From Nanobdellota archaeon (GTDB lineage Archaea > Nanobdellota > Nanobdellia > Pacearchaeales > GW2011-AR1): DNA of 64,000 nt. The notes below the pieces were generated by a model that was not told where the DNA came from, made no database searches, and worked only from the letters and a program-made list of their open reading frames with translations. The first letter of the stretch is position 1; every line of letters starts with the position of its first letter. Of this stretch, positions 16,182 through 37,746 are shown one piece after another. Position numbers and translations under genes: made by a program. The stretch covers positions 11,166 through 75,165 of the forward strand of contig JBBSZC010000004.1 of NCBI GenBank assembly GCA_038044925.1, in the 5' to 3' direction.

Positions 16182-17372
16182 ATGAAGGTTGTGATTTTGG
16201 GTTATGGTTCTGTGGGATCTGTATTGTCTAAGATGCTTTCAAAAGAAAAAAGAGTAAAGGAAATTATATGCTGCGGTATAAATTTTAAGAGAAAGCAAGA
16301 AGATGAAAGAGTTATCCATAAAATAATTGATTTAACTGATGAAAAAAAGCTCGTAGAATTTCTTAACAAAGAAAAGCCAGATGCTGTTGTTAATGCTACC
16401 CATCCGAAATTTAATTTGAATATAATGAAGGCTTGCATCAAAGCGAAAGTTAATTACATTGATACAGCTTCTTTTTGGGATTTTGACCCTAATCCAAAAG
16501 CTAAAATTCCATATAAGATGGAACAAACAGACCACAATAAGGATTTCCTTAAGAATAACAAGATTGGTTTAATCGAAGCAGGGGTTGCTCCAGGAATGGA
16601 TAATTTAATGGCTGCAGAATGCGCTTCTGAATTAGATGAAGTTGATTATATTAAAATTAGGATGGTTGAAGACACTGGAAGCAACGAGATTTATTTTCCG
16701 TGGAATAAAGAATGGTTGCTTGATGAACTTAGCACTAAACCAATAGTTTACGAAAATGGAGTTTTCAAATTAGTTGACAGTTTTGGAGCCGAAGAAGAAT
16801 ACACTTTCCCTGAACCGATTGGAAAAAGAAAAACCTACTACTTTGCGCAGGATGAGGTTGGTTCAATTCCGTTGCATATAAAAACCAAAAAACTAGATGT
16901 AAAAATTCATGACAATAATATTAGTGTTTTCAAAACCTTACTTGCTTTAGGATTGCTTTCTGAGAAAAAAATTTCAGTTGATGGAGTTAAAGTTAAACCA
17001 TTAAGCGTTTTAACAAAACTTTTGCCAAATCCTATTCCCGGAGAAGAGAAGAAATTTCCTGAAGCAAGGTTTGCTATGTCTGTTGAAGCCATTGGAAAAA
17101 TAAACAAAAAGAAAAAGATAGTCAAATGTTCAATAGTTTTTCCAGCCCAAAAAGATATCAACAAGTTAGGACTTGATGCCAATTTTATTTCTTATCCAAC
17201 AGCGCTATCTATAAAGCTCTTTCTTATGGAAATACCAAACATAACAAAAAGAGGAGTCTTTCCTCCAGAAATTCTCGAGAAAGTTATCAGAAAAAGAATA
17301 TTAAATGAATTGAAAAAAATCAAACAAATAAATTTTACAAAGAAAATGGTAGCATGTTTTAGCCAGATATAG
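16182..17372 (+). CDS. saccharopine dehydrogenase-like NAD(P)-binding oxidoreductase (homospermidine/carboxynorspermidine synthase-like)
   Basis: MKVVILGYGSVGS Rossmann start; family-typical length and layout. Confidence 0.65.
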   Translation: MKVVILGYGSVGSVLSKMLSKEKRVKEIICCGINFKRKQEDERVIHKIIDLTDEKKLVEFLNKEKPDAVVNATHPKFNLNIMKACIKAKVNYIDTASFWDFDPNPKAKIPYKMEQTDHNKDFLKNNKIGLIEAGVAPGMDNLMAAECASELDEVDYIKIRMVEDTGSNEIYFPWNKEWLLDELSTKPIVYENGVFKLVDSFGAEEEYTFPEPIGKRKTYYFAQDEVGSIPLHIKTKKLDVKIHDNNISVFKTLLALGLLSEKKISVDGVKVKPLSVLTKLLPNPIPGEEKKFPEARFAMSVEAIGKINKKKKIVKCSIVFPAQKDINKLGLDANFISYPTALSIKLFLMEIPNITKRGVFPPEILEKVIRKRILNELKKIKQINFTKKMVACFSQI

Positions 17373-17490
17373 TAGATAAAACAGGGATGCATAAAGTGAA
17401 GTTACACGTATTCTAGATAATTTAGAAGGAAGGGGTTTGATAGAGAGAAAGAGAAGGGGGATGTCAAGCATTATTATTTTGAATAGAACT

Positions 17491-17578
17491 AATTGAAACT
17501 AGTTACTTACAAACCTATATAAGCAGTTTCAATTTCACTTTTTTATATTTTCAGCATAAACAGAAAATAATTGAAACT
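17491..17578. promoter_or_regulatory. three copies of AATTGAAACT (two direct at 17491 and 17569, one inverted at 17525) upstream of the metal gene cluster; candidate operator
   Basis: 10-mer repeated three times within 90 bp just upstream of ATG 17583; an ArsR-family regulator is encoded in the cluster. Confidence 0.3.
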
Positions 17579-17582
17579 AACA

Positions 17583-19325
17583 ATGAAAAAAACAATCAAA
17601 CTCAAGGGAATGAGCTGCAACTCGTGTTCAATGCTTATAGAGAAATCACTTAAGGACAAAGTTAATAATGTATCTGCAAGTTTCTCAAAAGAAGAAGTAG
17701 AAGTAGATTTTGATGAAAATAAGATATCTGAAAAAGAGATTATTGAAGAAATTGAAAAAATAGGTTATGAATGCGAGAATTGTGAAATAATTGATTCCGA
17801 AGAGGATATTGAGAATTTAACTAAACAAAGAAAAGACCTAAAAGATCTATTTTTGAATGAGGAGATTTCTTCCGAACAATATGAGAATTTAAAAAAAGAA
17901 GTAGATGTGAAGATTTCAAAATTAGAAGAAAAAAAAAGAAAACAAGTTAAAAAATCAAATGATGGACATAACAAAGATGATTTAATAAAAAATTCTAAAG
18001 TAAACTATTCAGAAAGCCATAAAAAATCAAAGAAACATAATGAAGAGATAGAATCTTCAGAAGAGACTGCTTCAAAAAAGAATTTCTTTTCAAACTATAG
18101 CACTTCTGATAAAATAGGATTTGTTTTTGCTATTCTTTCTTTTCTTTTACTAGTATTCGTATTGTATCATTTCTTTTTAGGGCATATTAAAATTCCAGAA
18201 GTTGCGCTACCGCAAGTTGGAGACAAAGTCGGATTAGGATTATTATTTCTTGTAGGAATCTTAACTGGATTTCATTGCGTATCAATGTGCGGAGGCTTTG
18301 TTGTTTCATATACTGCTAAAAATGCATTAAATGGACATAAGAGCTATGGACAGCATCTTGCTTATGGCGGTGCAAAAGTTATTTCTTATACAATAATTGG
18401 AGGAGTGTTTGGGTTAATTGGTGGAATATTCGCATTTAGCATTGGACTTCGGGCAGGAGTTGCAATATTTGCAGGAATATTTATGGTATTTTATTCTTTA
18501 AGCATGTTTGGATTCAAGTTTTTTAGAAGATTTCAATTAAATCCAAAATTTTTGACAAAGTATACAATGAAAGCATCAGCTAATGCTAAAGGTCCGTATA
18601 AAGGTCCTATTGTTACAGGATTGTTAAATGGTCTATTTATTGCATGCGGTCCGCTTCAAGCAATGTATCTTTATGCTGCAGGAACCGGAAGCTTTGCAGG
18701 TGGAGCAACTGCCATGGCAGTTTTCGGATTAGGAACACTTCCTGTAATGATTAGTTTTGGAGCTTTTGCTTCTGTAATTAGCCATAAAACAACTCAGAAA
18801 ATATTGAAAATTTCAGCTGTGATTGTATTAATATTAGGATTAATAATGTTAAATAGAGGATTGTCTATGATTGGAAGCCCGTATAGTTTTTCATCAATTC
18901 AATCAAAGCTGGCTGGAAACTCTGCAGTGGCAGGAGGAACATCGGCGGTTTTAACAGATGGAGGAGTTCAGGAAGTTAATATGGATGTTTCTGGATCAGG
19001 ATATTCACCAAATTCTTTTGTATTAAAAAAAGGCGTTCCTGTTAAATGGAATGTTAATGTAAAACAATTAACAGGTTGTAATCAAGAATTAGTATTAAAT
19101 CAGTATGGCATTGATAAAAATTTGAAGGATGGTTTGAATGTTATTGAATTCACACCAGATAAAGTAGGAACAATTACATTTAGCTGTGGAATGGGAATGC
19201 TTAAAGGAAGTTTTATTGTAACTGAAACAGGAACCGCAAACCAAGAACAAGTTAAAGCTGCAACACCGCCAAAGGGAATGCAATGCGGAGGAGCTAGTGG
19301 TGGAGGATGCGGTTGTGGAGGTTAA
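17583..19325 (+). CDS. multidomain metal-handling membrane protein: N-terminal HMA domain, charged linker, polytopic DsbD_2/UreH-like TM domain (HCVSMCGG), C-terminal cupredoxin-like domain, Gly/Cys tail
   Basis: LKGMSCNSCS (MxCxxC); TM block with GFHCVSMCGGF; C-terminal domain alignable to the COX II-like ORF at 20338; tail CGGASGGGCGCGG; canonical ATG at 17583 (track used TTG 17571). Confidence 0.55.
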   Translation: MKKTIKLKGMSCNSCSMLIEKSLKDKVNNVSASFSKEEVEVDFDENKISEKEIIEEIEKIGYECENCEIIDSEEDIENLTKQRKDLKDLFLNEEISSEQYENLKKEVDVKISKLEEKKRKQVKKSNDGHNKDDLIKNSKVNYSESHKKSKKHNEEIESSEETASKKNFFSNYSTSDKIGFVFAILSFLLLVFVLYHFFLGHIKIPEVALPQVGDKVGLGLLFLVGILTGFHCVSMCGGFVVSYTAKNALNGHKSYGQHLAYGGAKVISYTIIGGVFGLIGGIFAFSIGLRAGVAIFAGIFMVFYSLSMFGFKFFRRFQLNPKFLTKYTMKASANAKGPYKGPIVTGLLNGLFIACGPLQAMYLYAAGTGSFAGGATAMAVFGLGTLPVMISFGAFASVISHKTTQKILKISAVIVLILGLIMLNRGLSMIGSPYSFSSIQSKLAGNSAVAGGTSAVLTDGGVQEVNMDVSGSGYSPNSFVLKKGVPVKWNVNVKQLTGCNQELVLNQYGIDKNLKDGLNVIEFTPDKVGTITFSCGMGMLKGSFIVTETGTANQEQVKAATPPKGMQCGGASGGGCGCGG

Positions 19326-19326
19326 T

Positions 19327-19581
19327 ATGAAAAAAATCAATCTTGTTATTCTTTTTGCATTTTTAATTAGTCTAAGCTTAATTGCAAATATTTCCGCTCT
19401 TGAAAATAATGCTAATAGTTGTCTGATGGGAGGAGTAATGTATGGATTTAATGGGAGTTATGGTTCAGGAACAATGATCTTGAGCTGGACTGTCTCTATA
19501 CTACTGATTGTGCTAATTATTGCTGGAATTTATTGGTTTATAAAATCTGCAAATAATAAAACTTCCGGAGGTAAAAAATGA
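19327..19581 (+). CDS. small secreted/membrane protein
   Basis: Signal-like N-terminus MKKINLVILFAFLISLSLIA plus a C-terminal TM. Confidence 0.35.
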   Translation: MKKINLVILFAFLISLSLIANISALENNANSCLMGGVMYGFNGSYGSGTMILSWTVSILLIVLIIAGIYWFIKSANNKTSGGKK

Positions 19582-19769
19582 AAGCAAATTTAAATATCAA
19601 AGGAATGCACTGCAAAAGTTGCGTTAAATTAATTGAAAGCGAGTTTCAAGATAAAGTTAATAGAATAAAGGTTGAAGAAAATGGCAAAGCTACTATTGAC
19701 TTTGACGAGAAAAAGATAAGTCTTCAGAATATCAAAGACACTATAAAAGAACTGGGCTATCAAGCTTAA
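19578..19769 (+). CDS. copZ: heavy-metal-associated (HMA) copper chaperone, CopZ-like
   Basis: IKGMHCKSCV MxCxxC motif; 63 aa. Confidence 0.75.
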   Translation: MKANLNIKGMHCKSCVKLIESEFQDKVNRIKVEENGKATIDFDEKKISLQNIKDTIKELGYQA

Positions 19770-19781
19770 TTATAAATCAAA

Positions 19782-20312
19782 ATGGCAGAAAAAACAAGAT
19801 GTGAAGAATGTGATAGAAATTTTCCAAGTTTGGATGCGTTATCAATGCATAACACCGCTAAACATAGTTCTACAATCGTAGAGAAAAAGAGATTATCAAA
19901 AAAATCAATTATGACCCTAGTGATTATAGCAATAATTTTGATTAGTGGTTTTTGGTTTGTTTATAATTCTTCAGGAAGAAATACTACTGGCAATGTAGTT
20001 AATGAAAATACTCTCAAAGATAATAAGGATAGCTCTAATCCATCAACAAATAACGAAATACAAAAAATAACATTAAGCATGAAGAACAATTATTATCCAA
20101 ATACTATTACTGTAAAATCCGGAGTTCCAGTTGAAATAACTTTAGATAGCAGTGTTGGAGGTTGTTATAGATCATTTAGTATACCTAAATTGGGTGTTTC
20201 TAAACGTTCGTCTAACCCTTCAGATACAATAAAGTTTACTCCAAGTCAAAAAGGAACTTTTAGATATCAATGCAGTATGGGCATGGGAACTGGAACTATA
20301 ATTGTAGAGTAA
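19782..20312 (+). CDS. membrane protein with N-terminal C2H2 zinc finger, one TM and a C-terminal cupredoxin-like domain
   Basis: CEECDRNFPSLDALSMHNTAKH fits C-x2-C-x12-H-x4-H; TM LVIIAIILISGFWFV; C-terminal domain homologous to 18.99-19.3 kb and 20.34-20.69 kb. Confidence 0.5.
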   Translation: MAEKTRCEECDRNFPSLDALSMHNTAKHSSTIVEKKRLSKKSIMTLVIIAIILISGFWFVYNSSGRNTTGNVVNENTLKDNKDSSNPSTNNEIQKITLSMKNNYYPNTITVKSGVPVEITLDSSVGGCYRSFSIPKLGVSKRSSNPSDTIKFTPSQKGTFRYQCSMGMGTGTIIVE

Positions 20313-20337
20313 AAAAGAAAGGAGGTTAAAAAACAAA

Positions 20338-20694
20338 ATGAATAAAACAGCAGTTATTATTGGGGTTGTGGCGATACTTTTAGTAAGCAGTATTTTTGTG
20401 TTGAAATCCTTTACAGGAAATTCTATTCAAGAAAAGGATGTAAAAGAATTTACAATTAAAGCATTTAGATTTGGCTACGCTCCCGGCACAATAACAGTAA
20501 ATCAAGGAGACAAAGTTAAACTAATAATAAATAATACAGATACTCTTCATGGAATAAGAATACCTGACTTAGCCGTTAGGGGAGATGAAATTTTAGAGTT
20601 TACAGCAGATAAACAAGGAGAATTTACTTGGTATTGCGCTAATATGTGTGGAAAAGACCATATGCAAATGCAAGGTAAATTATTAGTGAAATAA
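20338..20694 (+). CDS. cytochrome oxidase subunit II-like cupredoxin (CuA-type motif) with N-terminal TM
   Basis: HGIRIPDL and YCANMCGKDHMQM match the COX II H...CxxxCxxxHxxM CuA ligand pattern. Confidence 0.6.
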   Translation: MNKTAVIIGVVAILLVSSIFVLKSFTGNSIQEKDVKEFTIKAFRFGYAPGTITVNQGDKVKLIINNTDTLHGIRIPDLAVRGDEILEFTADKQGEFTWYCANMCGKDHMQMQGKLLVK

Positions 20695-20695
20695 G

Positions 20696-20920
20696 ATGAT
20701 ATTGATAATAGGGCAAACACTTATTTATTGGACAGGAATACTAACCGGGATTTTCTTTATTTTTTCTTTTTTAGGGTGTTGTTGTCATACTAAACTTTGC
20801 AAATATTCTATTTTCGGAAAAGTAGGAAAGTATCATAAATTTTTTATTTATCTTGCTTTATTATTTTTTATCATACATGCATCTCTTGCAATAATGACTA
20901 AATTTGGAGTAATCATTTAG
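20696..20920 (+). CDS. small Cys-rich membrane protein
   Basis: Two TM helices flanking GCCCHTKLCKY. Confidence 0.3.
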   Translation: MILIIGQTLIYWTGILTGIFFIFSFLGCCCHTKLCKYSIFGKVGKYHKFFIYLALLFFIIHASLAIMTKFGVII

Positions 20921-20939
20921 AACCGAAAGGTTTAAATAC

Positions 20940-21344
20940 TTGAACAATTGTTCAATTAATACAATGAAACAAACACAAGAAACAAAACAACCAGCAGACA
21001 AGAAGGTCATTCAGTTTTTTTCTAGCCTTGCCGACGAAACAAGACTAAAAATATTGTTAAGCCTGACAAAGGGTCCAAAAACTGTTAATGGGATATATGA
21101 TTATGTTGGAAGAGAAAAAGTATCATTATCTGCTATTTCACATCAATTAAAATTTTTAAGCGATATAGACATGGTCCAACATAAAAGAAATGGTCAGGAA
21201 AAGAATTTCGAGTTATCAAATGATTTCTGTTGGTGTATAATAAGAGATGTTTTCAAACACTTTGATGGAAATTCAAAAAAATTCAATGAGTGCTGCGGAT
21301 GTTCAGATAAAAAATCAGAGAAAAGAGGGGGAGGACAAGATTAA
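20940..21344 (+). CDS. ArsR/SmtB-family metal-responsive transcriptional regulator with a Cys-rich C-terminus
   Basis: HTH LADETRLKILLSLTKGPKTVNGIYDYV; C-terminal CWC...CCGCSD. Confidence 0.75.
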   Translation: MNNCSINTMKQTQETKQPADKKVIQFFSSLADETRLKILLSLTKGPKTVNGIYDYVGREKVSLSAISHQLKFLSDIDMVQHKRNGQEKNFELSNDFCWCIIRDVFKHFDGNSKKFNECCGCSDKKSEKRGGGQD

Positions 21345-21963
21345 AAAGACAAATGTTTCAACAAACCCCATTAGCGGAAAAATAATTGCGATTGTATTGA
21401 CAGTTGCAATATTGATCATAGGAACTTTCTTTTATTTTATTGCTAGTGGCAATTCTAGCGGGGCTGTTGTAAGTAATTCTGGAGAAATGAATTCAAATGT
21501 TCCTCAAGAACAGATGAAAACTAATGATAATTCTAATACTATCGGAAGCAATCTAGAAGAACCAATGAATGGTAAGGGTTCTAGTGAAGAAGAAACGCAA
21601 AATTCTAATTCTCTATTCAATCATATTTTGCAGGAAAATAAAATTTATATTAAAATAAATTCTGAAGGAATGCAAAAGTTGTTTTATTATTCTCCAGTCA
21701 ATGAACCAATTAATGTTCCATTATCAGAAGGAAATATCGGAGAATATCAAATTCATTCTATTGGCGGGCAAAAATATTATCCTTTAATTGTGGGCTATGA
21801 AGAAGCCAAAATAATGAGACAAGAGGGTCTTTTTTCTAATATTGGAGACCCAATTAAAAATTTCTTTGGAAAAAATGTTGTAATAGTCGGAGTAATGCAA
21901 AGAACAGGCGGAATGATGGATATGGTTCATTTAATACCTTTAAGTGAAGGAGAGTGGAATTAA
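21286..21963 (+). CDS. membrane-anchored extracytoplasmic protein with a Met-rich motif (putative copper binding)
   Basis: TM IIAIVLTVAILIIGTFFYFIA; C-terminal MQRTGGMMDMVH; start uncertain (overlaps the ArsR 3' end). Confidence 0.4.
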   Translation: MSAADVQIKNQRKEGEDKIKKTNVSTNPISGKIIAIVLTVAILIIGTFFYFIASGNSSGAVVSNSGEMNSNVPQEQMKTNDNSNTIGSNLEEPMNGKGSSEEETQNSNSLFNHILQENKIYIKINSEGMQKLFYYSPVNEPINVPLSEGNIGEYQIHSIGGQKYYPLIVGYEEAKIMRQEGLFSNIGDPIKNFFGKNVVIVGVMQRTGGMMDMVHLIPLSEGEWN

Positions 21964-21964
21964 A

Positions 21965-24157
21965 ATGGTTCAAAAACTTAACCTTAGCATTACTGGAATG
22001 CATTGTCAAAGTTGCGTAACTTTATTGACAAAGGGGATTCAAAGAGACCCGGGAGTAAAGTATGTAAATGTTAATTATGCAACTGAAAAAGCCGCTGTGG
22101 AATTTGATGAGTCTAAAACAAATCATGATAAGATAATTCAAATTATTTCAGGATTAGGATACAGCGCAAGACCCATTACAGGAGAAACTAATCCAGAATA
22201 TGAAAATCAAAAGAAACAGGCCGAAATAAAGAAACTAAAAAATACTTTTATATTCAGCTTAATATTTGCATTTCCTGCGTTGATGATAGGTATGGTTTTA
22301 ATGTGGTTTGGAATAGATGTTCCTTATAAAAATTTTATTTTATTTTTGCTTGCAACGCCTGTCCAATTTATTGTAGGATGGGATATTTACAAAAGTGCAT
22401 TTGGAGCATTAAAAAATAAGTCTGCTAATATGGATAGTTTGATCGCTATTGGAACAAGTGCGGCTTATTTCTATAGTCTTTATGTTATTATGTTTAGTCC
22501 AATGGGCGATCAATATTTTGAAGCAGCAGCTGTCCTAATCACATTTGTAATCTTGGGGAGATATTTAGAAGCTGTTGCAAAAGGAAAAACAAGCGAAGCA
22601 ATAAAAAAACTAATGAATCTATCTCCAAAAATAGCAACAGTTATAAGAAATGGGCAAGAAGTCAAGATTCCTGTTGATGAAGTAGTTGTTAATGATGTTG
22701 TAATTGTTAAACCTGGTGAAAAAGTTCCAGTTGATGGCGTAATTATTGAAGGAGAAAGTGCTATTGATGAATCTATGATTACCGGAGAATCAATGCCAAT
22801 TGAAAAAAATAAAGGAGATACTGTTATTGGAGCAACAATCAATAAACATGGTTCGTTTAAATTCAAAGCAACAAAAGTTGGGGCAAATTCTACTTTAGCA
22901 CAAATCATAAAACTAATAGAAGATGCACAGGGAAAGAAAGCTCCAATTCAAAGATTTGCAGATAAAATTTCGGCTTATTTTGTTCCCGCAGTAATCTTAA
23001 TAGCTATCTTATCATTTGTAGTATGGTATTTTGTTGTTGGTCAAACATTTGAATTTTCTTTAATAATTGCAGTTTCTGTTCTAGTTATAGCATGTCCTTG
23101 CGCTTTGGGATTAGCAACTCCAACTGCTATAATGGTTGGAACAGGAAAAGGAGCTGAAAAAGGTATTTTAATCAAAGGCGGAGACGCTCTTGAAACAGCC
23201 CATAAACTTTATGCAGTAGTATTTGATAAAACAGGAACCTTAACTCAAGGAAAACCAGAAGTTACTGATGTTGTATCTGTAAAAAATATGGATGAAGATG
23301 AAGTTTTGAAATTTGCAGCAAGTGTTGAACAATTTAGCGAACATCCATTAGCTCAGGCTATTGTAAACAAGACAAAAGAGAAAAATATCAAATTAGAAGA
23401 CATAAAGAACTTTAAAGCAATCCCAGGACATGGTGTTGAAGGGATGTTAAAAAGAAAGAAAATAATTGTAGGAAAGCCCGAATATATTAGAAAACTTGCA
23501 GGTCTTGGATCATTTGAAAATAAAATTGCAGAACTAGAAGGAAATGGAAAGACTGTTGTTGTTCTTTGCATTGATAAAAAGGTAGAAGGATTCATAGGAA
23601 TTGCAGATACTCCTAGACAAGATTCAATAGAAGCAGTTAAGGAATTGCAAAAACAAAAAATCTATGTTTATATGATTACTGGAGATAATAAAAGAACTGC
23701 TAATGCTATTGCTAAACAATTGGGAATTACGCATGTTATATCTGAAGTTCTTCCTGAAGACAAAGCTAAACATGTTAAAGAATTGCAGAAAAAAGGAAAA
23801 GTTGCAATGGTTGGAGATGGAATTAATGATGCTCCTGCGCTAGCTCGAGCAGATATCGGTATTGCAATTGGTTCTGGAACTGATGTTGCAATGGAAACAG
23901 GCAATGTTGTTTTAATGAATAATAAAACAACAGATGTTGCAAAAGCGATTAAATTAAGCAAGGTTACAATCAGAAAAATAAAACAGAATATGTTCTGGGC
24001 ATTATTCTATAATGCTCTTGGAATACCTATTGCAGCAGGAGCATTATATTCCTCAACAGGCTGGTTATTATCACCAATAATTGCAGGAGGAGCAATGGCT
24101 TTGTCATCAGTTAGTGTTGTTCTAAATACATTAATGATGAAGAGGACTAAAATTTAA
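21965..24157 (+). CDS. copA: copper-translocating P1B-type ATPase CopA
   Basis: HMA ITGMHCQSCV; TGES; CPC in ACPCALGLATP; DKTGTLT; GDGINDAP. Confidence 0.9.
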   Translation: MVQKLNLSITGMHCQSCVTLLTKGIQRDPGVKYVNVNYATEKAAVEFDESKTNHDKIIQIISGLGYSARPITGETNPEYENQKKQAEIKKLKNTFIFSLIFAFPALMIGMVLMWFGIDVPYKNFILFLLATPVQFIVGWDIYKSAFGALKNKSANMDSLIAIGTSAAYFYSLYVIMFSPMGDQYFEAAAVLITFVILGRYLEAVAKGKTSEAIKKLMNLSPKIATVIRNGQEVKIPVDEVVVNDVVIVKPGEKVPVDGVIIEGESAIDESMITGESMPIEKNKGDTVIGATINKHGSFKFKATKVGANSTLAQIIKLIEDAQGKKAPIQRFADKISAYFVPAVILIAILSFVVWYFVVGQTFEFSLIIAVSVLVIACPCALGLATPTAIMVGTGKGAEKGILIKGGDALETAHKLYAVVFDKTGTLTQGKPEVTDVVSVKNMDEDEVLKFAASVEQFSEHPLAQAIVNKTKEKNIKLEDIKNFKAIPGHGVEGMLKRKKIIVGKPEYIRKLAGLGSFENKIAELEGNGKTVVVLCIDKKVEGFIGIADTPRQDSIEAVKELQKQKIYVYMITGDNKRTANAIAKQLGITHVISEVLPEDKAKHVKELQKKGKVAMVGDGINDAPALARADIGIAIGSGTDVAMETGNVVLMNNKTTDVAKAIKLSKVTIRKIKQNMFWALFYNALGIPIAAGALYSSTGWLLSPIIAGGAMALSSVSVVLNTLMMKRTKI

Positions 24158-24158
24158 A

Positions 24159-24293
24159 ATGGATTGCTGCAGTTCTACTAAATCAGAAGATTGTTGCGAA
24201 GATAAAACTTTTGCAGTTGCAATGACAATACTAATTTTATTAATTTTGGGCTTGCTTTCATATATTTTCTTTTTTAATGGAGGATTAAGATGA
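24159..24293 (+). CDS. 44-aa Cys-rich micro-protein with one TM
   Basis: ORF not in the track: MDCCSSTKSEDCCEDK then hydrophobic helix; starts 2 nt after the CopA stop. Confidence 0.35.
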   Translation: MDCCSSTKSEDCCEDKTFAVAMTILILLILGLLSYIFFFNGGLR

Positions 24294-24335: not shown

Positions 24336-24602
24336 TTATTTGGAGTATTTATTATAAATAATAGCAAATACCCATCCTGCAACAAATCCAATTACTGTAA
24401 TGACGACAGTTCCGATCAAACCTTGCATTATATTAGGAGTTGTTTTAATCGCGTTTAAATCAATTCCATGAAAAAATAAATTAAAAAATTTTGTAGAAGA
24501 ATCTCCCAAAAATAAAACTGCTAGCAAACAAAGAATCGATAGAATAAATGTTATTGATGCAAGAGCTATTCCAGTTCCTTTAGGACTAATTTTTTGTGCC
24601 AC
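24336..24602 (-). CDS. small two-TM membrane protein
   Basis: 88-aa ORF with two hydrophobic helices. Confidence 0.35.
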   Translation of the reverse strand: MAQKISPKGTGIALASITFILSILCLLAVLFLGDSSTKFFNLFFHGIDLNAIKTTPNIMQGLIGTVVITVIGFVAGWVFAIIYNKYSK

Positions 24603-27946: not shown

Positions 27947-28082
27947 CGCCCCCACGAGGATTTGAACCTCGGTCTCAACCTTCTTACTTTATCTCCTTGA
28001 AATCTAGGAGAGGTAGTGTCAGGAGAACCTTGGTTCTCCCACATCCGCAAGGTCGTGTTCTATCCAACTGAACTATAGGGGC
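27947..28082 (-). tRNA. tRNA-Arg (anticodon GCG) with an intron of about 63 nt
   Basis: Reverse complement: acceptor GCCCCTA/TGGGGGC, D arm GTTC-AGTTGGATA-GAAC, anticodon stem CGACC/GGTTG, loop TTGCGG plus spliced-in A, T arm CGAGGTTCAAATCCTCG, discriminator G. Confidence 0.6.
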
Positions 28083-30382: not shown

Positions 30383-31282
30383 CTAAAACCTAATTCTCTC
30401 TTCTTTCATTAGTTCAATTAAAAATTTAACAAGTGGTCTTAAATCTCCTTTTAATTGTGAAGTTTCAAGAGCATTATAATATTCGTGTTTTCTTTTATTG
30501 GGGATATTTATCATAGGATACCCCTTTTTATGAAGTATAAAATTCATTAATAATCTTCCAACTCTTCCATTTCCATCAACGAAAGGGTGAATTGTTTCAA
30601 AAGCTGAATGAAAATAAGCAGATAAAACCAATGGATGAATCTTATTCTTATTTTTAGTATACCAAGAAAGCAAAGAAGCCATTTCTTTTGAAACTTCCTC
30701 TGGTTTTGGTGGCAACCATTCAGTTCCCCTAATATAAACTTGCAGAGTTCTATATTTTCCTATCTGATTATTTAATTCTGGTTTTAATATATTCTTGACT
30801 ACAATCTCATGTAATTCTAAAATTAAATCCTTAGTAATTTCTTGCCTCGTTTTAAGGATATAATCAAAAGCCTCTTTATGATTAACAATTTCATTTATCT
30901 CTCTCAGAGATTTTCTTGGAGTTATATTTTCAAATAAAAGCTGAGAAGTTTCTTGAAGTGTTAATGTGTTTCCCTCAATATTAGTAGAATCGTAAGTGAA
31001 TAAAGAAACAAAAGATTCATATCTATTTTCCAAATTTGCTTTTGGTTGCTTTGCATATTCTTTTTTTATTTTTTCAATTTCTTCTTTCTCTTTATCTGTT
31101 AATAGAGTATTAAGCAAGTTAAGTTCTCTATCTGCTTTCTTCTCTTCTTCAATTAATTTCTTCTTATCTAAATTTAACCCCAGATAAATTCTTTTTTTTA
31201 TTATATCCTTTCCCTTTCTTATAGAAATAACTCTATAATAATACTTTTTCCCATTTCTTTCTTTTATCTCTGTATAAACCAT
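30383..31282 (-). CDS. Fic/Doc-family (Fido) protein
   Basis: Canonical Fic motif HPFVDGNGRVGRLL. Confidence 0.8.
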   Translation of the reverse strand: MVYTEIKERNGKKYYYRVISIRKGKDIIKKRIYLGLNLDKKKLIEEEKKADRELNLLNTLLTDKEKEEIEKIKKEYAKQPKANLENRYESFVSLFTYDSTNIEGNTLTLQETSQLLFENITPRKSLREINEIVNHKEAFDYILKTRQEITKDLILELHEIVVKNILKPELNNQIGKYRTLQVYIRGTEWLPPKPEEVSKEMASLLSWYTKNKNKIHPLVLSAYFHSAFETIHPFVDGNGRVGRLLMNFILHKKGYPMINIPNKRKHEYYNALETSQLKGDLRPLVKFLIELMKEERIRF

Positions 31283-36403: not shown

Positions 36404-37455
36404 TTAAAGGGAGCTAGGGATGGGTGCATAAATAGCTTTTACAACATTCCTCCTTAACTTAAAGCTATTAGCCCACTTTGCATAGGCGTTCCAACCATTA
36501 AAACTTTCTAATAGTTTTTCCTTACTTAATTCTCCGCTTTTGTGTTGTCTTATTCTGAATATTATATTTCTTAAATTTTTCTTTCTTAACAAGTTATAGT
36601 GATAGAATTTTCTAAACCCTACAAAATCAATTCCTCTTGATAGAGGAATTATTTTAGATTTCTGAGAATGTAGTTCTAGCTTTAATTTTTCTTTCAATAA
36701 TCTGTTTATTTGCTCTTTCCACACTTCTAGTTGTTCCTTAGAATTATGAAGAATAACAAAATCATCTACATATCTAATATAATATCTAGCCCGTAACTTA
36801 TTCTTAACAAACCAATCCAATTCGTGAAGATAAACGTTGGCGAAGAATTGGGAGGTTAGATTGCCGAGAGGCATTCCTTTCTCGCAAAAACTCGTTCGCC
36901 CCCCCCCCCGAACGAGTTCGGGCTGTTATTAAGAATCTGACCAATCAACCAAATAACTTTTTTATCTTTAATCTTTCTGCTTAAAATTTCTATTAAAATC
37001 TTGTAATTAACTTCTTTAAAATAATGCTTTATGTCTGCTTTCAAACAAAAGGAAATTCTGCTATTGTTTTTAGTAACTTTTCTCTGAAATAATTCAAATC
37101 TTTTAAGTGCAAATAAATTCCCCTTTCCTACTCTGTTCGCACAAGAATCATAAATAAAAGATTTGTCAAAAAGTGGCTCAATTATTCTAACAACTGCATG
37201 ATGAACTATTCTATCGGGAAAGGCAGACTTTGAAATTTTGCGGGTTTTTGGGTCTCTTAACACAAAGTTCTTTAGAGGTTCTGGCTTATATGTCTGATTT
37301 TTTAGCTTATCTGACAAGCTGATTAGATTTTTAAATAAATTAGCTTCAAATTCAATAACATAGTTCTTTTTAGTCTTGCCTTTTCTTGCTTTTCTCCAAG
37401 CAAGAATTAAGTTAGACAAATTATAAATCTGCTCATATAAGTTATTAGTTTCCAT
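36404..37455 (-). CDS. DGR-type reverse transcriptase, split into two ORFs (37455-36856 and 36874-36404) by a frameshift inside a G11 homopolymer
   Basis: N-terminal LILAWRKARKGK; motif 3 ADIKHYFKEV; motif 4 KGMPLGNLTSQFFANVYLHELD; motif 5 YVDDFVI; adding one G (12 instead of 11) gives continuous ...NSFGGGGRTSFCEKGMPLGN... Confidence 0.8.
36891..36917. repeat. C11 (G11 on the coding strand) homopolymer flanked by a 10-bp inverted repeat, AACTCGTTCG-C(n)-CGAACGAGTT, inside the RT gene
   Basis: 11 consecutive C at 36899-36909 in a roughly 29% GC genome; flanking arms perfectly complementary. Confidence 0.85.
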
Positions 37456-37484
37456 AATAAGTATAAAGTCTTAGGAGTTAGAGC

Positions 37485-37576
37485 TATTCCAGACGCATAA
37501 CCATACTCGACATCAGCATGGTAGTTGCCATTGACATTCAACCTGTCACCATTCCAGTTCGAATTCACCGCGGATA
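37485..37576 (-). other. DGR template repeat (TR)
   Basis: About 89-nt repeat of the VR; at all 13 mismatches TR has A on the coding strand; TR codons AAT/AAC dominate. Confidence 0.85.
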
Positions 37577-37746
37577 GTTATGTAGCCAGTTTACCTTCCT
37601 ATCACTGAAATTCCTCGTAAGGAAAATCTGTATTTTATGACTTAAAATAAAATCAAATATGTCTTGATAAATTGGCATGTAGCCCTAGCTTATCGCTAAG
37701 ACAAAAATTAACTAAAATAAGAATTAATAAACCTTTACTTATTTTT

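What the first reader, a model, noticed from the sequence alone, without database searches (positions are those of the whole stretch)
17491..24293. Compact copper/metal homeostasis island with unusual domain fusions
About 7 kb is co-directional throughout. The genes in order: an HMA-polytopic(HCxxMCGG)-cupredoxin fusion; a small secreted protein; CopZ-like HMA; a C2H2-ZnF/TM/cupredoxin protein; a COX II-like CuA cupredoxin; a CCC-motif membrane peptide; an ArsR regulator with Cys tail; a Met-rich exported protein; CopA; and a 44-aa MDCC...CC peptide. This is far richer than a simple copZ-copA pair, for a genome that looks otherwise reduced.
Basis: partly seen in the sequence, partly recalled or inferred. 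Interest (0 to 1): 0.6.

Follow-up and report, generated by a model that had tools for sequence, protein, structure and literature searches.

The report
Ten-gene archaeal copper-handling locus
This is a real, tightly packed ten-gene copper-handling locus of a tiny-genome (DPANN) archaeon: an ordinary copper pump and chaperone joined to membrane proteins that appear to place copper-binding domains on the outside of the cell, in a layout that recurs in many uncultured relatives but has not been studied experimentally.

Summary
Ten co-directional genes lie at 17583-24293, and every domain call checks out: HMA, DsbD_2, three cupredoxins, C2H2 finger, ArsR and CopA.

The interpretation needs sharpening.
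1. The two "unusual fusions" are not rare. The HMA-DsbD_2-cupredoxin protein has more than 2,600 homologues; it precedes copA in 46 of 52 DPANN loci and in one Clostridium relative. The zinc finger-TM-cupredoxin protein has 277 homologues.
2. Their cupredoxins are CupA-type Cu(I) chaperone domains, with the Cys...CxMxM ligands kept. Charge-based topology places them outside the cell.
3. The CuA-type protein matches the enigmatic DPANN "nosZ-like" proteins in kind. All nine close orthologue loci sit among cop genes.
4. The locus has two transcription units, each with a conserved palindromic operator. One operator (consensus TGAAAC-N2-GTTTCA) lies beside the TATA box before gene 1: 66 sites in related loci against 4.5 expected. 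The other (TTGAACAATTGTTCAA) lies between the TATA box and the ArsR start, and I first misread it as a TTG start.
5. The membrane-bound DUF7343 regulator that normally precedes gene 1 survives here only as a decayed remnant.

"Met-rich" and "CCC" are not conserved features.

Verdict: an expanded variant of a widespread, uncharacterised DPANN cop locus. The mechanism is inferred, not shown.

The parts
17312..17490 (+). Decayed remnant (in-frame stop plus frameshift) of the C-terminal winged-helix part of a membrane-anchored DUF7343/MarR-like regulator
   Evidence: tblastn of the L001 regulator gives two pieces in different frames, 68% and 93% identity, joint E 2e-16. The intact gene lies directly upstream of the g1 homologue in most related loci.
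17494..17507 (.). Operator 1: imperfect palindrome TGAAACTAGTTACT (family consensus TGAAACTAGTTTCA)
   Evidence: 66 matches in 1.33 Mb of related loci against 4.5 in shuffles (maximum 9). 63 are followed by a TATA-like box. Within the window alone it is not significant.
17516..17522 (+). TATA-like box (TATATAA) of transcription unit 1
   Evidence: The aligned consensus places TTATAA 9 nt after the palindrome. Sequence read.
17526..17531 (.). GTTTCA half-site just downstream of the TATA box; part of the inverted repeat 17491-17505 / 17520-17534
   Evidence: The gtTTca element is conserved in the consensus.
17565..17579 (+). Third copy of AATAATTGAAACTA, in the leader just before the g1 start codon
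   Evidence: Direct repeat D1, 93% identity. Three of the seven AATTGAAAC matches in the window fall within 17491-17577.
17583..19325 (+). g1: cytoplasmic HMA domain, Lys/Glu-rich linker, 7-TM DsbD_2 core (HCxxMCGG in TM1, CGP in TM4), extracellular CupA-type cupredoxin, Cys/Gly tail
   Evidence: Pfam. CupA 2mry/4f2e at 4.8e-13. Foldseek TM-score 0.89-0.91 to 4f2e and 4f2f. Invariant C12, C15, H231, C232, M235, C236, C355, C499, C535, M537, M539. K+R counts in loops give N-in, C-out.
19327..19581 (+). g2: small envelope protein with signal peptide, C..M motif, GxYGxG, TM anchor and IYWLIKSANKKK tail
   Evidence: No Pfam family. Homologues in more than 13 loci just after g1, and similar peptides after copA in other loci.
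19578..19769 (+). g3: CopZ-like HMA copper chaperone (GMHCKSC)
   Evidence: HMA 37.8 bits against a cut-off of 24.8. The CopZ equivalog models score below their cut-offs.
19782..20312 (+). g4: cytoplasmic C2H2 zinc finger, one TM helix, extracellular CupA-type cupredoxin (GC...CSMGM)
   Evidence: Pfam. 4f2f at 2.9e-9 and CupA at 6.3e-7. Zinc finger and ligands are conserved in orthologues. Family of 277 proteins.
20338..20694 (+). g5: membrane-anchored stand-alone CuA-type cupredoxin
   Evidence: COX2 above cut-off and L-NosZ CuA region 4.4e-18. T. thermophilus CuA 6.7e-8. The ligand set is kept in the orthologues, with only the final Met varying in two (L011, L067). Same kind as the DPANN 'nosZ-like' proteins.
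20696..20920 (+). g6: 2-TM protein with near-invariant W12, G14, C28, H47, H61; usually follows g5
   Evidence: 20 cluster representatives among 1.84 billion proteins. Alignment. Adjacent to g5 or a g5-like gene in L016, L017, L022, L074, L079, L080, L081.
20931..20938 (+). TATA box (TTTAAATA) of transcription unit 2
   Evidence: Conserved upstream of every g7 orthologue whose upstream DNA could be read.
20940..20955 (.). Operator 2: perfect 16-bp palindrome TTGAACAATTGTTCAA between the TATA box and the leaderless g7 start
   Evidence: Only exact copy in the window. Present upstream of the g7 orthologues, with symmetric variants such as TTGAGCAATTGCTCAA.
20964..21344 (+). g7: ArsR/SmtB-type regulator (126 aa) with conserved FCWC and a C-terminal Cys pair
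   Evidence: HTH_5 34.7 bits against a cut-off of 22. Alignment. Public gene calls give 126 aa.
21286..21963 (+). g8: single-pass membrane protein with a conserved C-terminal extracytoplasmic domain of about 110 aa and unknown fold
   Evidence: 53 homologues, all hypothetical, none with a Pfam domain. Always lies between g7 and copA. AF2 model pLDDT 56; the best fold match (LolE/MacB periplasmic domain) has E 0.024, which is not significant.
21965..24157 (+). g9: CopA, P1B-1 Cu(I)-exporting ATPase with one HMA domain
   Evidence: TIGR01511 658 bits. Motifs GMHCQSC, TGES, CPC, DKTGT, GDGIND, YN(x4)P, MALSS.
24159..24293 (+). g10: 44-aa peptide, N-terminal CC...CC followed by one TM helix; lineage-specific
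   Evidence: One orthologue, in L074: same length, all Cys kept, 7 synonymous and 5 non-synonymous codon changes. Absent from about 100 other loci.
24336..24602 (-). DUF5676 2-TM protein, convergent with the locus; probably an associated gene
   Evidence: PF18926 at 2.7e-19. A DUF5676 or closely similar small 2-TM gene lies next to copA in L005, L011, L039, L054, L074, L075.

Best explanation
This is a two-promoter copper-defence locus of a Pacearchaeota/Nanoarchaeota-type DPANN archaeon.

Unit 2 (g7-g8-g9-g10) is a classical efflux unit. The ArsR-type repressor g7 sits on the 16-bp palindrome between the TATA box and its own leaderless start, and releases it when its Cys sites bind Cu(I). CopA then pumps Cu(I) out of the cytoplasm.

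Unit 1 (g1-g6) is an envelope module.
- CopZ (g3) hands cytoplasmic Cu(I) to the HMA domain of g1.
- The 7-TM DsbD_2 core of g1 carries invariant His/Cys/Met residues in TM1 and a Cys-Gly-Pro in TM4. It connects the HMA domain to a CupA-type Cu(I)-binding cupredoxin on the outer face. My preferred reading is that it passes Cu(I) itself across the membrane.
- g4 provides a second outward-facing CupA-type domain, and g2 a Cys/Met peptide at the membrane surface.
- g5 (CuA centre) and g6 (2-TM His/Cys protein) add a redox-active copper site outside the cell.
- Together these would bind, buffer and perhaps redox-convert copper at the surface of a cell that has little other defence.

Shown: gene content, domain identities, ligand conservation, synteny and the conserved operators.
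Inferred: topology, direction of copper flow, which regulator binds which operator, and copper responsiveness.
For: - Domain and motif identities.
- The four CupA ligands are invariant across 52 g1 homologues and present in the g4 orthologues that cover the domain.
- copA lies within 6 kb downstream of the g1 homologue, on the same strand, in 46 of 52 loci. The same pairing occurs in a Clostridium-class bacterium.
- HMA-DsbD_2 proteins (COG2836) were inferred to belong to the copper-responsive CsoR regulon of gut Firmicutes (PMC4938975).
- Positive-inside counts in g1: inner loops 2.9, 7.2 and about 3 K+R; outer loops 0.5, 0.2 and 0.0.
- g4 has KKRLSKK on the zinc-finger side of its TM helix.
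- All nine close g5 orthologue loci (50-83% identity, L074-L082) carry cop genes.
- Operator 1 occurs 66 times against 4.5 expected, and 63 copies have a TATA-like box after them.
- Operator 2 plus its TATA box stands in front of the g7 orthologues, with symmetric base changes.
- Gaps and overlaps are tight within each unit.
Against: - There are no expression, binding or transport data.
- DsbD/CcdA relatives move reducing equivalents, not metal. The TM core has no solved homologue, and its AF2 confidence is only 60-80.
- Streptococcal CupA works on the cytoplasmic side, so an outward-facing CupA domain has no precedent. Topology here rests on charge counts alone.
- g8 has no conserved soft-metal ligands. 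g6, g8 and g10 have no assignable function.
- Operator 1 tracks the DUF7343 regulator, which is a pseudogene here, so control of unit 1 in this genome is unclear.
- More distant g5 relatives are mostly not next to cop genes.
Confidence: 0.6

Rival explanations
1. g1 is a DsbD/CcdA-like conduit for reducing equivalents, not for copper. It would take electrons on the cytoplasmic side and keep the Cys ligands of the outward-facing CupA-type domains (its own, g4's and g2's) reduced so that they can bind Cu(I). This would resemble ScsB feeding ScsC in Salmonella.
For: - DsbD_2 147.7 bits and DsbD_TM 38.6 bits, with Cys in TM1 and TM4 as in CcdA/DsbD.
- Relatives carry thiol-redox genes near the locus: a weak DsbA-like hit (22.6 bits, below the 25.6 cut-off), DsbB, glutaredoxin and peroxiredoxin.
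- Some g4 relatives are fused to thioredoxin (P0252).
Against: - TM1 carries H-C-x-x-M-C, with invariant His and Met. This looks like a metal site rather than a single redox Cys.
- The cytoplasmic partner domain is an HMA metal-binding domain, not a thioredoxin.
- No thioredoxin-like gene lies in this locus.
Confidence: 0.25
2. The envelope module exists mainly to build a cuproprotein. g1 and g4 would deliver Cu(I), and reduce the Cys pair, to load the CuA centre of g5, as PCuAC and Sco do in bacteria. g5/g6 would then carry out an unknown extracellular electron-transfer job.
For: - g5 keeps the CuA ligand set.
- All nine close orthologue loci (L074-L082) carry cop genes.
- g5 and g6 are a recurrent adjacent pair.
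Against: - g1 is far more widespread than g5. Only about 9 of some 70 g1 loci carry a g5 orthologue.
- The commonest arrangement is g1-copZ-copA, which points to detoxification.
Confidence: 0.1
3. The locus handles another thiophilic metal, such as Hg, Ag or Cd, rather than copper.
For: - HMA domains also score against the MerP, MerTP and ZntA models.
- ArsR-family sensors and Cys-rich peptides are not copper-specific.
Against: - CopA has the Cu(I)/Ag(I) P1B-1 signature CPC, YN, MxxSS, and passes TIGR01511.
- The CupA-type and CuA sites are copper sites.
- The window encodes no MerA or MerB.
Confidence: 0.05
4. g5 is a respiratory or N2O-reducing enzyme subunit that merely happens to lie here, as its 'nosZ' or 'COX2' database labels would suggest.
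For: - Best NCBIfam hit is the CuA region of clade III NosZ, 65 bits.
- Zhang et al. 2024 considered N2O reduction for this kind of protein.
Against: - At 118 aa there is no room for a CuZ domain.
- It scores far below the NosZ and CoxB cut-offs.
- No oxidase subunit I or other respiratory gene turned up in the window proteins scanned or in the annotated flanks.
- Complementation of a nosZ mutant failed in the cited study.
- Linkage to cop genes is consistent among close orthologues.
Confidence: 0.03

Closest known systems
Streptococcus pneumoniae copY-cupA-copA operon (CupA, PDB 4f2e/2mry; CopA metal-binding domain, 4f2f)
   Same: - The g1 C-terminal domain and the g4 domain share the cupredoxin fold (TM-score 0.89-0.91, 32-37% identity) and the Cys...Cys-x-Met-x-Met ligands.
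- Both are membrane-tethered.
- Both are encoded next to a Cu(I) P-type ATPase and a copper-sensing repressor.
   Different: - CupA faces the cytoplasm and feeds a CopA whose own metal-binding domain is also a cupredoxin.
- Here the domains are predicted to face outward, and CopA carries a ferredoxin-like HMA domain served by a CopZ.
- One domain here is fused to a 7-TM DsbD_2 protein and the other to a zinc finger.
- The regulators are ArsR and DUF7343 types, not CopY.
- The review read describes CupA as limited to a few streptococci.
HMA-DsbD_2 membrane proteins of Firmicutes (COG2836; labelled 'sulfite exporter TauE/SafE family' or 'heavy metal transport/detoxification protein')
   Same: - Same HMA plus DsbD_2 core.
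- Acetoanaerobium noterae has the full HMA-DsbD_2-CupA-like protein followed directly by copA.
- The group was inferred to be in the CsoR copper regulon.
   Different: - The group has no experimentally defined function that I could find.
- The archaeal loci add g2, g4, g5, g6, g8 and different regulators.
DsbD/CcdA/ScsB thiol-disulfide electron transporters (including the Scs copper-tolerance system)
   Same: - A 6-TM core with Cys in TM1 and TM4 and Pfam DsbD_TM/DsbD_2 similarity.
- ScsB/ScsC links this fold to copper tolerance (from my own knowledge).
   Different: - There are no thioredoxin-like or Ig-like partner domains.
- There is an extra N-terminal TM helix.
- TM1 has HCxxMC rather than a lone Cys.
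- An HMA domain sits on the cytoplasmic side.
- No PDB relative of the core is detectable by sequence profile or by Foldseek.
DPANN 'nosZ-like' CuA-only proteins (Zhang et al. 2024, mBio, PMC10936187)
   Same: - g5 is a short Sec-type protein with a CxxxCxxxH CuA motif and no CuZ domain.
- It comes from an archaeon of the same phyla.
- Its score against a NosZ model is similar to those reported.
   Different: - That study reported acyl-carrier-protein genes as the usual neighbours and considered N2O reduction.
- Here, and in the nine loci with close orthologues, the gene sits inside a cop locus, usually followed by g6.
- I did not test membership in their clade with their sequences.
Canonical archaeal cop cluster (regulator, CopZ/CopM chaperone, CopA, as in Saccharolobus) and the bacterial copZ-copA pair
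   Same: Unit 2 together with g3 is regulator, HMA chaperone and P1B-1 ATPase.
   Different: - The regulator is ArsR-type rather than the Lrp/TRASH CopR (from my own knowledge).
- Seven further genes are interleaved.
Mer transport relay (MerP to MerT to the N-terminal domain of MerA)
   Same: A works-like analogy only: a thiophilic metal handed between an HMA domain, Cys pairs within a small membrane protein, and a soluble domain on the other side.
   Different: - The fold is different and the presumed direction is opposite.
- The mer models score far below their cut-offs.

Membership tests
P1B-1 Cu(I)-exporting ATPase (CopA) | Transmembrane metal-site signature CPC, YN(x4)P, MxxSS, plus DKTGT, TGES and GDGxND | tested here: met
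   All motifs found in g9.
P1B-1 Cu(I)-exporting ATPase (CopA) | Score above the curated cut-off of a copper-ATPase model | tested here: met
   TIGR01511 scores 658.3 against a cut-off of 397. The E. coli CopA equivalog NF007952 scores 678 against 1316, which is not met.
CopZ-type HMA chaperone | Ferredoxin-like HMA domain with MxCxxC | tested here: met
   g3 scores 37.8 bits on HMA against a cut-off of 24.8 and has GMHCKSC. The CopZ exception models score 47-48 bits against cut-offs of 91-95.
CupA-type cupredoxin Cu(I) chaperone | Cupredoxin fold | tested here: met
   The g1 model gives TM-score 0.89 to 4f2e and 0.91 to 4f2f. g4 matches both by sequence.
CupA-type cupredoxin Cu(I) chaperone | S1/S2 ligands: Cys, then Cys-x-Met-x-Met | tested here: met
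   The ligands align with CupA. They are invariant in 52 g1 homologues and present in the g4 orthologues that cover the domain.
CupA-type cupredoxin Cu(I) chaperone | N-terminal anchor with the domain facing the cytoplasm | tested here: not met
   The positive-inside rule puts both domains outside. This is a prediction only, with no experimental topology.
CupA-type cupredoxin Cu(I) chaperone | Partner CopA with a cupredoxin-type metal-binding domain | tested here: not met
   The N-terminal domain of g9 is HMA at 55.4 bits, with no cupredoxin domain.
DsbD/CcdA thiol-disulfide transporters | Polytopic core matching the DsbD_TM or DsbD_2 models | tested here: met
   DsbD_2 scores 147.7 against 24.9, and DsbD_TM 38.6 against 27.1.
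DsbD/CcdA thiol-disulfide transporters | Essential Cys in TM1 and in TM4 | tested here: met
   C232 and C236 (TM1) and C355 (TM4) are invariant. They are embedded in HCxxMCGG and CGP.
DsbD/CcdA thiol-disulfide transporters | Thioredoxin-fold partner or domains, and electron-transfer activity | tested here: not met
   The locus encodes no thioredoxin-like domain. Activity cannot be tested with these tools.
CuA-centre proteins (COX subunit II / NosZ) | Ligand set His...Cys-x3-Cys-x3-His-x2-Met | tested here: met
   g5 has TLHG...CANMCGKDHMQM. The His/Cys ligands are kept in eight orthologues, and the final Met is replaced in two.
CuA-centre proteins (COX subunit II / NosZ) | Membership of CoxB or NosZ by curated cut-off; presence of subunit I or a CuZ domain | tested here: not met
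   CoxB scores 42.9 against 147.7. NosZ models score 32-65 against 625-700. The protein is 118 aa. No oxidase gene was found in the window proteins scanned. The rest of the genome was not available.
DPANN 'nosZ-like' CuA proteins | Short Sec-type protein with a CuA motif, no CuZ domain, DPANN host; placement in the published clade | tested here: inconclusive
   The descriptive features are met. I made no tree with the published sequences.
ArsR/SmtB metalloregulators | Winged-helix HTH_5 domain | tested here: met
   HTH_5 scores 34.7 against 22. NF033788 scores 48.9 against 55, just below cut-off.
ArsR/SmtB metalloregulators | Palindromic operator overlapping its own promoter | tested here: met
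   TTGAACAATTGTTCAA lies between the TATA box and the start codon and is conserved across orthologues. Binding itself was not tested.
ArsR/SmtB metalloregulators | A recognised metal-sensing site (alpha3N or alpha5) | tested here: inconclusive
   FCWC and a C-terminal Cys pair are conserved. They do not correspond to a site type I can assign, and metal specificity is unknown.

The most novel reading that the evidence does not exclude
DPANN archaea, and some Clostridia, may possess a non-ATPase copper pathway. In it a DsbD_2-type membrane protein would shuttle Cu(I) between a cytoplasmic HMA domain and an outward-facing CupA-type cupredoxin. That would make the 'TauE/SafE-like' HMA-DsbD_2 proteins a new class of Cu(I) translocators, controlled by a membrane-embedded one-component sensor (DUF7343) through the operator TGAAAC-N2-GTTTCA. 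The puzzling 'nosZ-like' CuA proteins of DPANN would then be components of this surface copper system rather than N2O reductases.
Probability: 0.3. Interest if true: 0.7.

Novelty: new variant of a known kind. Interest (0 to 1): 0.5.

Why it matters
- Copper handling appears to be one of the few accessory systems that these very small genomes keep and even elaborate. That says something about the chemistry these cells meet at the surface, or at the interface with a host cell.
- The locus gives a concrete genomic context for three uncharacterised families: HMA-DsbD_2-cupredoxin, zinc finger-TM-cupredoxin and CuA-only 'nosZ-like' proteins.
- It extends CupA-type Cu(I) sites from a few streptococci to a large archaeal group.
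- It provides two sharply defined promoter-operator pairs. These could be tested in vitro without cultivating the organism.

Tried and rejected
- Look-up of the exact g1 product (P0001) found no contig. The source contigs were reached through g8 instead.
- No solved structure matches the g1 membrane core, either by Foldseek or by a sequence profile at E up to 10.
- The g8 model is poor (pLDDT 56). Its best fold match, a LolE/MacB-type periplasmic domain at E 0.024, is not significant, so I treat it only as a lead.
- Literature searches for DsbD_2 plus copper, COG2836, DUF7343, and TauE SafE plus copper plus CopZ found no functional study.
- I first accepted the TTG start of g7 and a 'conserved N-terminal Cys'. 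I dropped this when the DNA showed the conservation to be a TATA box plus palindrome, with the ATG start used by public gene calls.
- I first thought g10 might be spurious, since it has no homologue in 73 loci. The L074 orthologue and its substitution pattern argue for a real but very narrow gene.
- 'Met-rich' for g8 and 'CCC' for g6 are rejected as family features.
- Horizontal acquisition is not supported by composition.
- Operator 1 is not significant within the window alone. Its support comes only from cross-locus conservation.

Full report
**1. Setting**

The window is archaeal and AT-rich, with GC about 0.30. It carries ribosomal protein genes L1, L10 and P1 just upstream of the region, a large ribosomal operon further on, and an intron-bearing tRNA.

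Identical copies of the region occur on contigs assembled independently from 0.1-µm-filtered Hainich aquifer samples, and in the MAG GCA_964363295.1. All 67 related genome loci come from Nano-, Pace-, Woese- or Undinarchaeota MAGs, apart from a few labelled Methanosarcinales or simply 'archaeon'.

**2. The observation**

Ten co-directional ORFs occupy 17583-24293, with spacings of -59 to +43 nt. The domain searches confirm each call:

| Gene | Coordinates | Result |
|---|---|---|
| g1 | 17583-19325 | HMA 3e-11, DsbD_2 5e-43, Cupredoxin_1 4e-8 |
| g2 | 19327-19581 | no family |
| g3 | 19578-19769 | HMA 2.5e-9 |
| g4 | 19782-20312 | C2H2 finger 1.7e-5, Cupredoxin_1 6e-11 |
| g5 | 20338-20694 | COX2 above cut-off; best NCBIfam hit is the CuA region of clade III NosZ, 4.4e-18 |
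| g6 | 20696-20920 | no family |
| g7 | 20964-21344 | ArsR HTH_5 1.6e-8 |
| g8 | 21286-21963 | no family |
| g9 | 21965-24157 | TIGR01511 copper ATPase, 658 bits against a cut-off of 397 |
| g10 | 24159-24293 | no family |

g9 carries CPC, YN(x4)P, MALSS, DKTGT, TGES and GDGIND. GC content does not set the region apart from its flanks, so 'island' should not be read as 'foreign DNA'.

**3. What the cupredoxins are**

Sequence searches against solved structures give the following:
- The C-terminal domain of g1 matches S. pneumoniae CupA at 4.8e-13.
- The g4 domain matches the pneumococcal CopA metal-binding domain at 2.9e-9 and CupA at 6.3e-7.
- In both cases the CupA ligands align: one Cys, then Cys-x-Met-x-Met.

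An AlphaFold model of g1 has mean pLDDT 69. Its HMA and cupredoxin domains score 80-95, and its membrane core 60-80. The model superposes on CupA and on the CopA metal-binding domain with TM-scores of 0.89 and 0.91.

Across 52 homologues the four ligands are invariant (C499, C535, M537, M539). So are the HMA CxxC, the H231-C232-x-x-M235-C236 of TM1 and C355-G-P of TM4. These two domains are therefore Cu(I)-chaperone-type cupredoxins, not electron carriers.

g5 is different. It aligns with the CuA domain of Thermus ba3 oxidase at 6.7e-8 and keeps His...Cys-x3-Cys-x3-His-x2-Met. The His and Cys ligands hold in all eight orthologues, and the final Met is replaced in two of them.

**4. Topology (inferred)**

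The g1 model has seven long helices after the linker. Averaged over the alignment, the loops I assign to the cytoplasm carry 2.9, 7.2 and about 3 Lys+Arg. The alternate loops carry 0.5, 0.2 and 0.0. That gives HMA inside and the cupredoxin plus Cys/Gly tail outside.

- g4 has KKRLSKK on the zinc-finger side of its single helix, so its cupredoxin should also face outward.
- g5 has an N-terminal signal-anchor.
- g2 has a signal peptide and a C-terminal anchor with a basic tail.

None of this was tested experimentally.

**5. How common the parts are**

| Gene | Family size and spread |
|---|---|
| g1 | More than 2,600 homologues; the 120 listed carry nearly the same Pfam set. Public labels: 'sulfite exporter TauE/SafE family protein' or 'copper chaperone CopZ'. 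|
| g4 | 277 homologues, more than 100 full length including the finger. |
| g2 | Follows g1 in at least 13 loci; similar Cys/Met-Gly-Tyr-TM peptides follow copA elsewhere. |
| g6 | 20 cluster representatives among 1.84 billion proteins. Only W12, G14, C28, H47 and H61 are nearly invariant, so 'CCC' is not a family feature. |
| g8 | 53 homologues, all unnamed, confined to the same archaeal group. No conserved Cys or Met, so 'Met-rich' is not a family feature. |
| g10 | One orthologue, in the closest relative L074: same length, all Cys kept, 7 synonymous against 5 non-synonymous codon changes. Synonymous divergence per codon equals that of copA. Probably real but very narrow. |

A full HMA-DsbD_2-CupA-like protein also sits directly upstream of copA in the Clostridium-class bacterium Acetoanaerobium noterae.

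The g8 model is poor, and its best fold match, a LolE/MacB-type periplasmic domain, is not significant.

**6. Synteny**

In 46 of 52 loci with enough downstream sequence, copA lies on the same strand within 6 kb of the g1 homologue. The median gap is roughly 300 nt, usually holding a copZ. The window, with 2.6 kb and seven genes in between, is at the expanded end of this range.

The full order g1-g2-g3-g4-g5-(g6)-g7-g8-g9 recurs in L011, L008, L017, L074 and L075.

When I selected loci by g5 instead, all nine loci with close orthologues (50-83% identity, L074-L082) carried cop genes. Only two of 25 more distant relatives did, although many of those contigs are short.

The convergent gene just downstream (24336-24602) is a DUF5676 2-TM protein. 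Genes of this kind lie next to copA in several other loci.

**7. Two promoters and two operators**

Upstream of g1:
- An imperfect palindrome TGAAACTAGTTACT lies at 17494-17507.
- A TATA-like box follows at 17516-17522.
- A GTTTCA half-site lies at 17526-17531.
- A third copy of the motif lies at 17565-17579.

Within the window alone this is not significant. Across the related loci, however, the pattern G[AT]AAC-N2-GTT[AT]C occurs 66 times against 4.5 in shuffles (maximum 9). Sixty-three copies are followed by a TATA-like box. Nearly all lie about 50 nt before the first gene of a cop unit, and the consensus is TGAAACTAGTTTCA-N9-TTATAA-N4-GTTTCA.

Upstream of g7, I had taken a TTG at 20940 as the start, because 'MNNCS' looked conserved. 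The DNA shows otherwise:
- A TATA box TTTAAATA lies at 20931-20938.
- It is followed by the perfect 16-bp palindrome TTGAACAATTGTTCAA at 20940-20955.
- The ATG at 20964 lies about 29 nt from the centre of the TATA box.

This arrangement is conserved upstream of the g7 orthologues, with symmetric variants such as TTGAGCAATTGCTCAA. Public gene calls also use the ATG, giving 126 aa.

The locus is therefore two units: g1-g6, and a leaderless g7-g8-g9-g10. This fits relatives in which the ArsR-g8-copA block stands apart from the g1 block.

**8. A lost regulator**

In most related loci (62 of 107 fetched), a membrane-anchored winged-helix regulator ends just before operator 1. It has two TM helices, a CxHGPxCxM loop and a DUF7343/MarR-like domain.

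In the window only its last 55 codons or so survive, at 17312-17490. They are broken by a stop codon and a frameshift, and they abut a saccharopine-dehydrogenase-like gene. Three independent assemblies show the same junction, and no intact copy lies elsewhere in the 64 kb.

Co-occurrence makes DUF7343 the likeliest partner of operator 1, and g7 the likeliest partner of operator 2. Both assignments are inferences.

**9. Mechanism**

My preferred model is as follows.
- Unit 2 is a self-repressed CopA efflux unit.
- Unit 1 is an envelope module. CopZ loads the HMA domain of g1, and the His/Cys/Met-lined DsbD_2 core links it to an outward-facing CupA-type site.
- g4 and g2 add further surface Cu(I) sites.
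- g5 and g6 add a redox-active copper centre.

The main rival is that the g1 core moves reducing equivalents, as its DsbD and CcdA relatives do, to keep the surface thiols able to bind Cu(I). Thiol-redox genes near relatives' loci, and thioredoxin-fused g4 relatives, favour this. The HCxxMC motif and the HMA partner domain argue against it.

A maturation role for the CuA protein is possible, but it cannot explain the much wider spread of g1. A respiratory or N2O-reducing role for g5 is unlikely, for these reasons:
- The protein is only 118 aa.
- It scores far below the family cut-offs.
- No oxidase gene was found among the window proteins scanned.
- Complementation failed in the published study.

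**10. Comparison with what is known**

- The review read describes CupA as a cytoplasm-facing chaperone found in only a few streptococci. The domains here share its fold and ligands, but not its topology or its partner type.
- HMA-DsbD_2 proteins were placed in the CsoR copper regulon of gut Firmicutes by a computational study. I found no functional work on them.
- Short CuA-only 'nosZ-like' proteins of DPANN were described by Zhang et al. 2024, with function unknown. Their cop context here is a new angle on that question.
- I found nothing on DUF7343.

**11. Verdict**

This is a genuine copper locus and a member of a widespread, unstudied DPANN layout. It is distinguished by extra envelope genes and by loss of the usual upstream regulator. 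I rate it a new variant of a known kind, with interest 0.5.

Noticed in passing
window 17312-17490: A pseudogene remnant of a membrane-anchored DUF7343/MarR-like regulator, fused out of frame to the 3' end of a saccharopine-dehydrogenase-like gene (16182-17372). Relatives keep the intact regulator at this position.
   Followed up: yes
window 24336-24602 (- strand): A DUF5676 2-TM protein lies convergent with the locus. Genes of this kind recur beside copA in L005, L011, L039, L054, L074 and L075, so DUF5676 may be copper-associated.
   Followed up: partly
window 36404-37701 (- strand): An Rfam RT-16 RNA motif (37577-37701, 62.7 bits) lies directly upstream of a reverse-transcriptase gene. That gene is split into two overlapping ORFs (36856-37455 and 36404-36874; RVT_1 weak, and 1.3e-9). 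This looks like a retroelement-like unit in a DPANN genome.
   Followed up: partly
window 27947-28082 (- strand): Rfam finds a tRNA 136 nt long (49.8 bits) that ARAGORN misses. It is presumably an intron-containing archaeal tRNA.
   Followed up: no
L025 9947, 16593, 19617: Three copies of operator 1, each with its TATA box, stand in front of three separate cop units: the g1 homologue, a g4-like cupredoxin and copA. The motif therefore defines a small regulon. L003, L032, L057 and L067 also hold two copies each.
   Followed up: partly
L001 8456-17475: A close relative carries further genes downstream of g4: a second DUF7343 paralogue, a 326-aa protein with a weak DsbA-like hit, hemerythrin genes, DsbB, another cupredoxin and a ferric-reductase-like protein. 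This is a redox-flavoured extension that the window lacks.
   Followed up: no
L015 13900-14046; L070 13832-13993; L044 11529-11738; L057 13740-13961; L022 16625-16933: Small g2-like peptides (Cys/Met, Gly/Tyr-rich stretch, TM helix, basic tail) follow copA in other DPANN loci. They may form an unannotated family of copper-associated membrane peptides.
   Followed up: partly
L016 15384-15590; L065 6996-7166: Other small membrane ORFs rich in His and Cys follow copA in these loci. They are not related to g10.
   Followed up: no
window 30383-31282 and 657-1916: A Fic-domain protein and an AAA_14/DUF4143 ATPase are encoded elsewhere in the window. Neither is linked to the finding.
   Followed up: no
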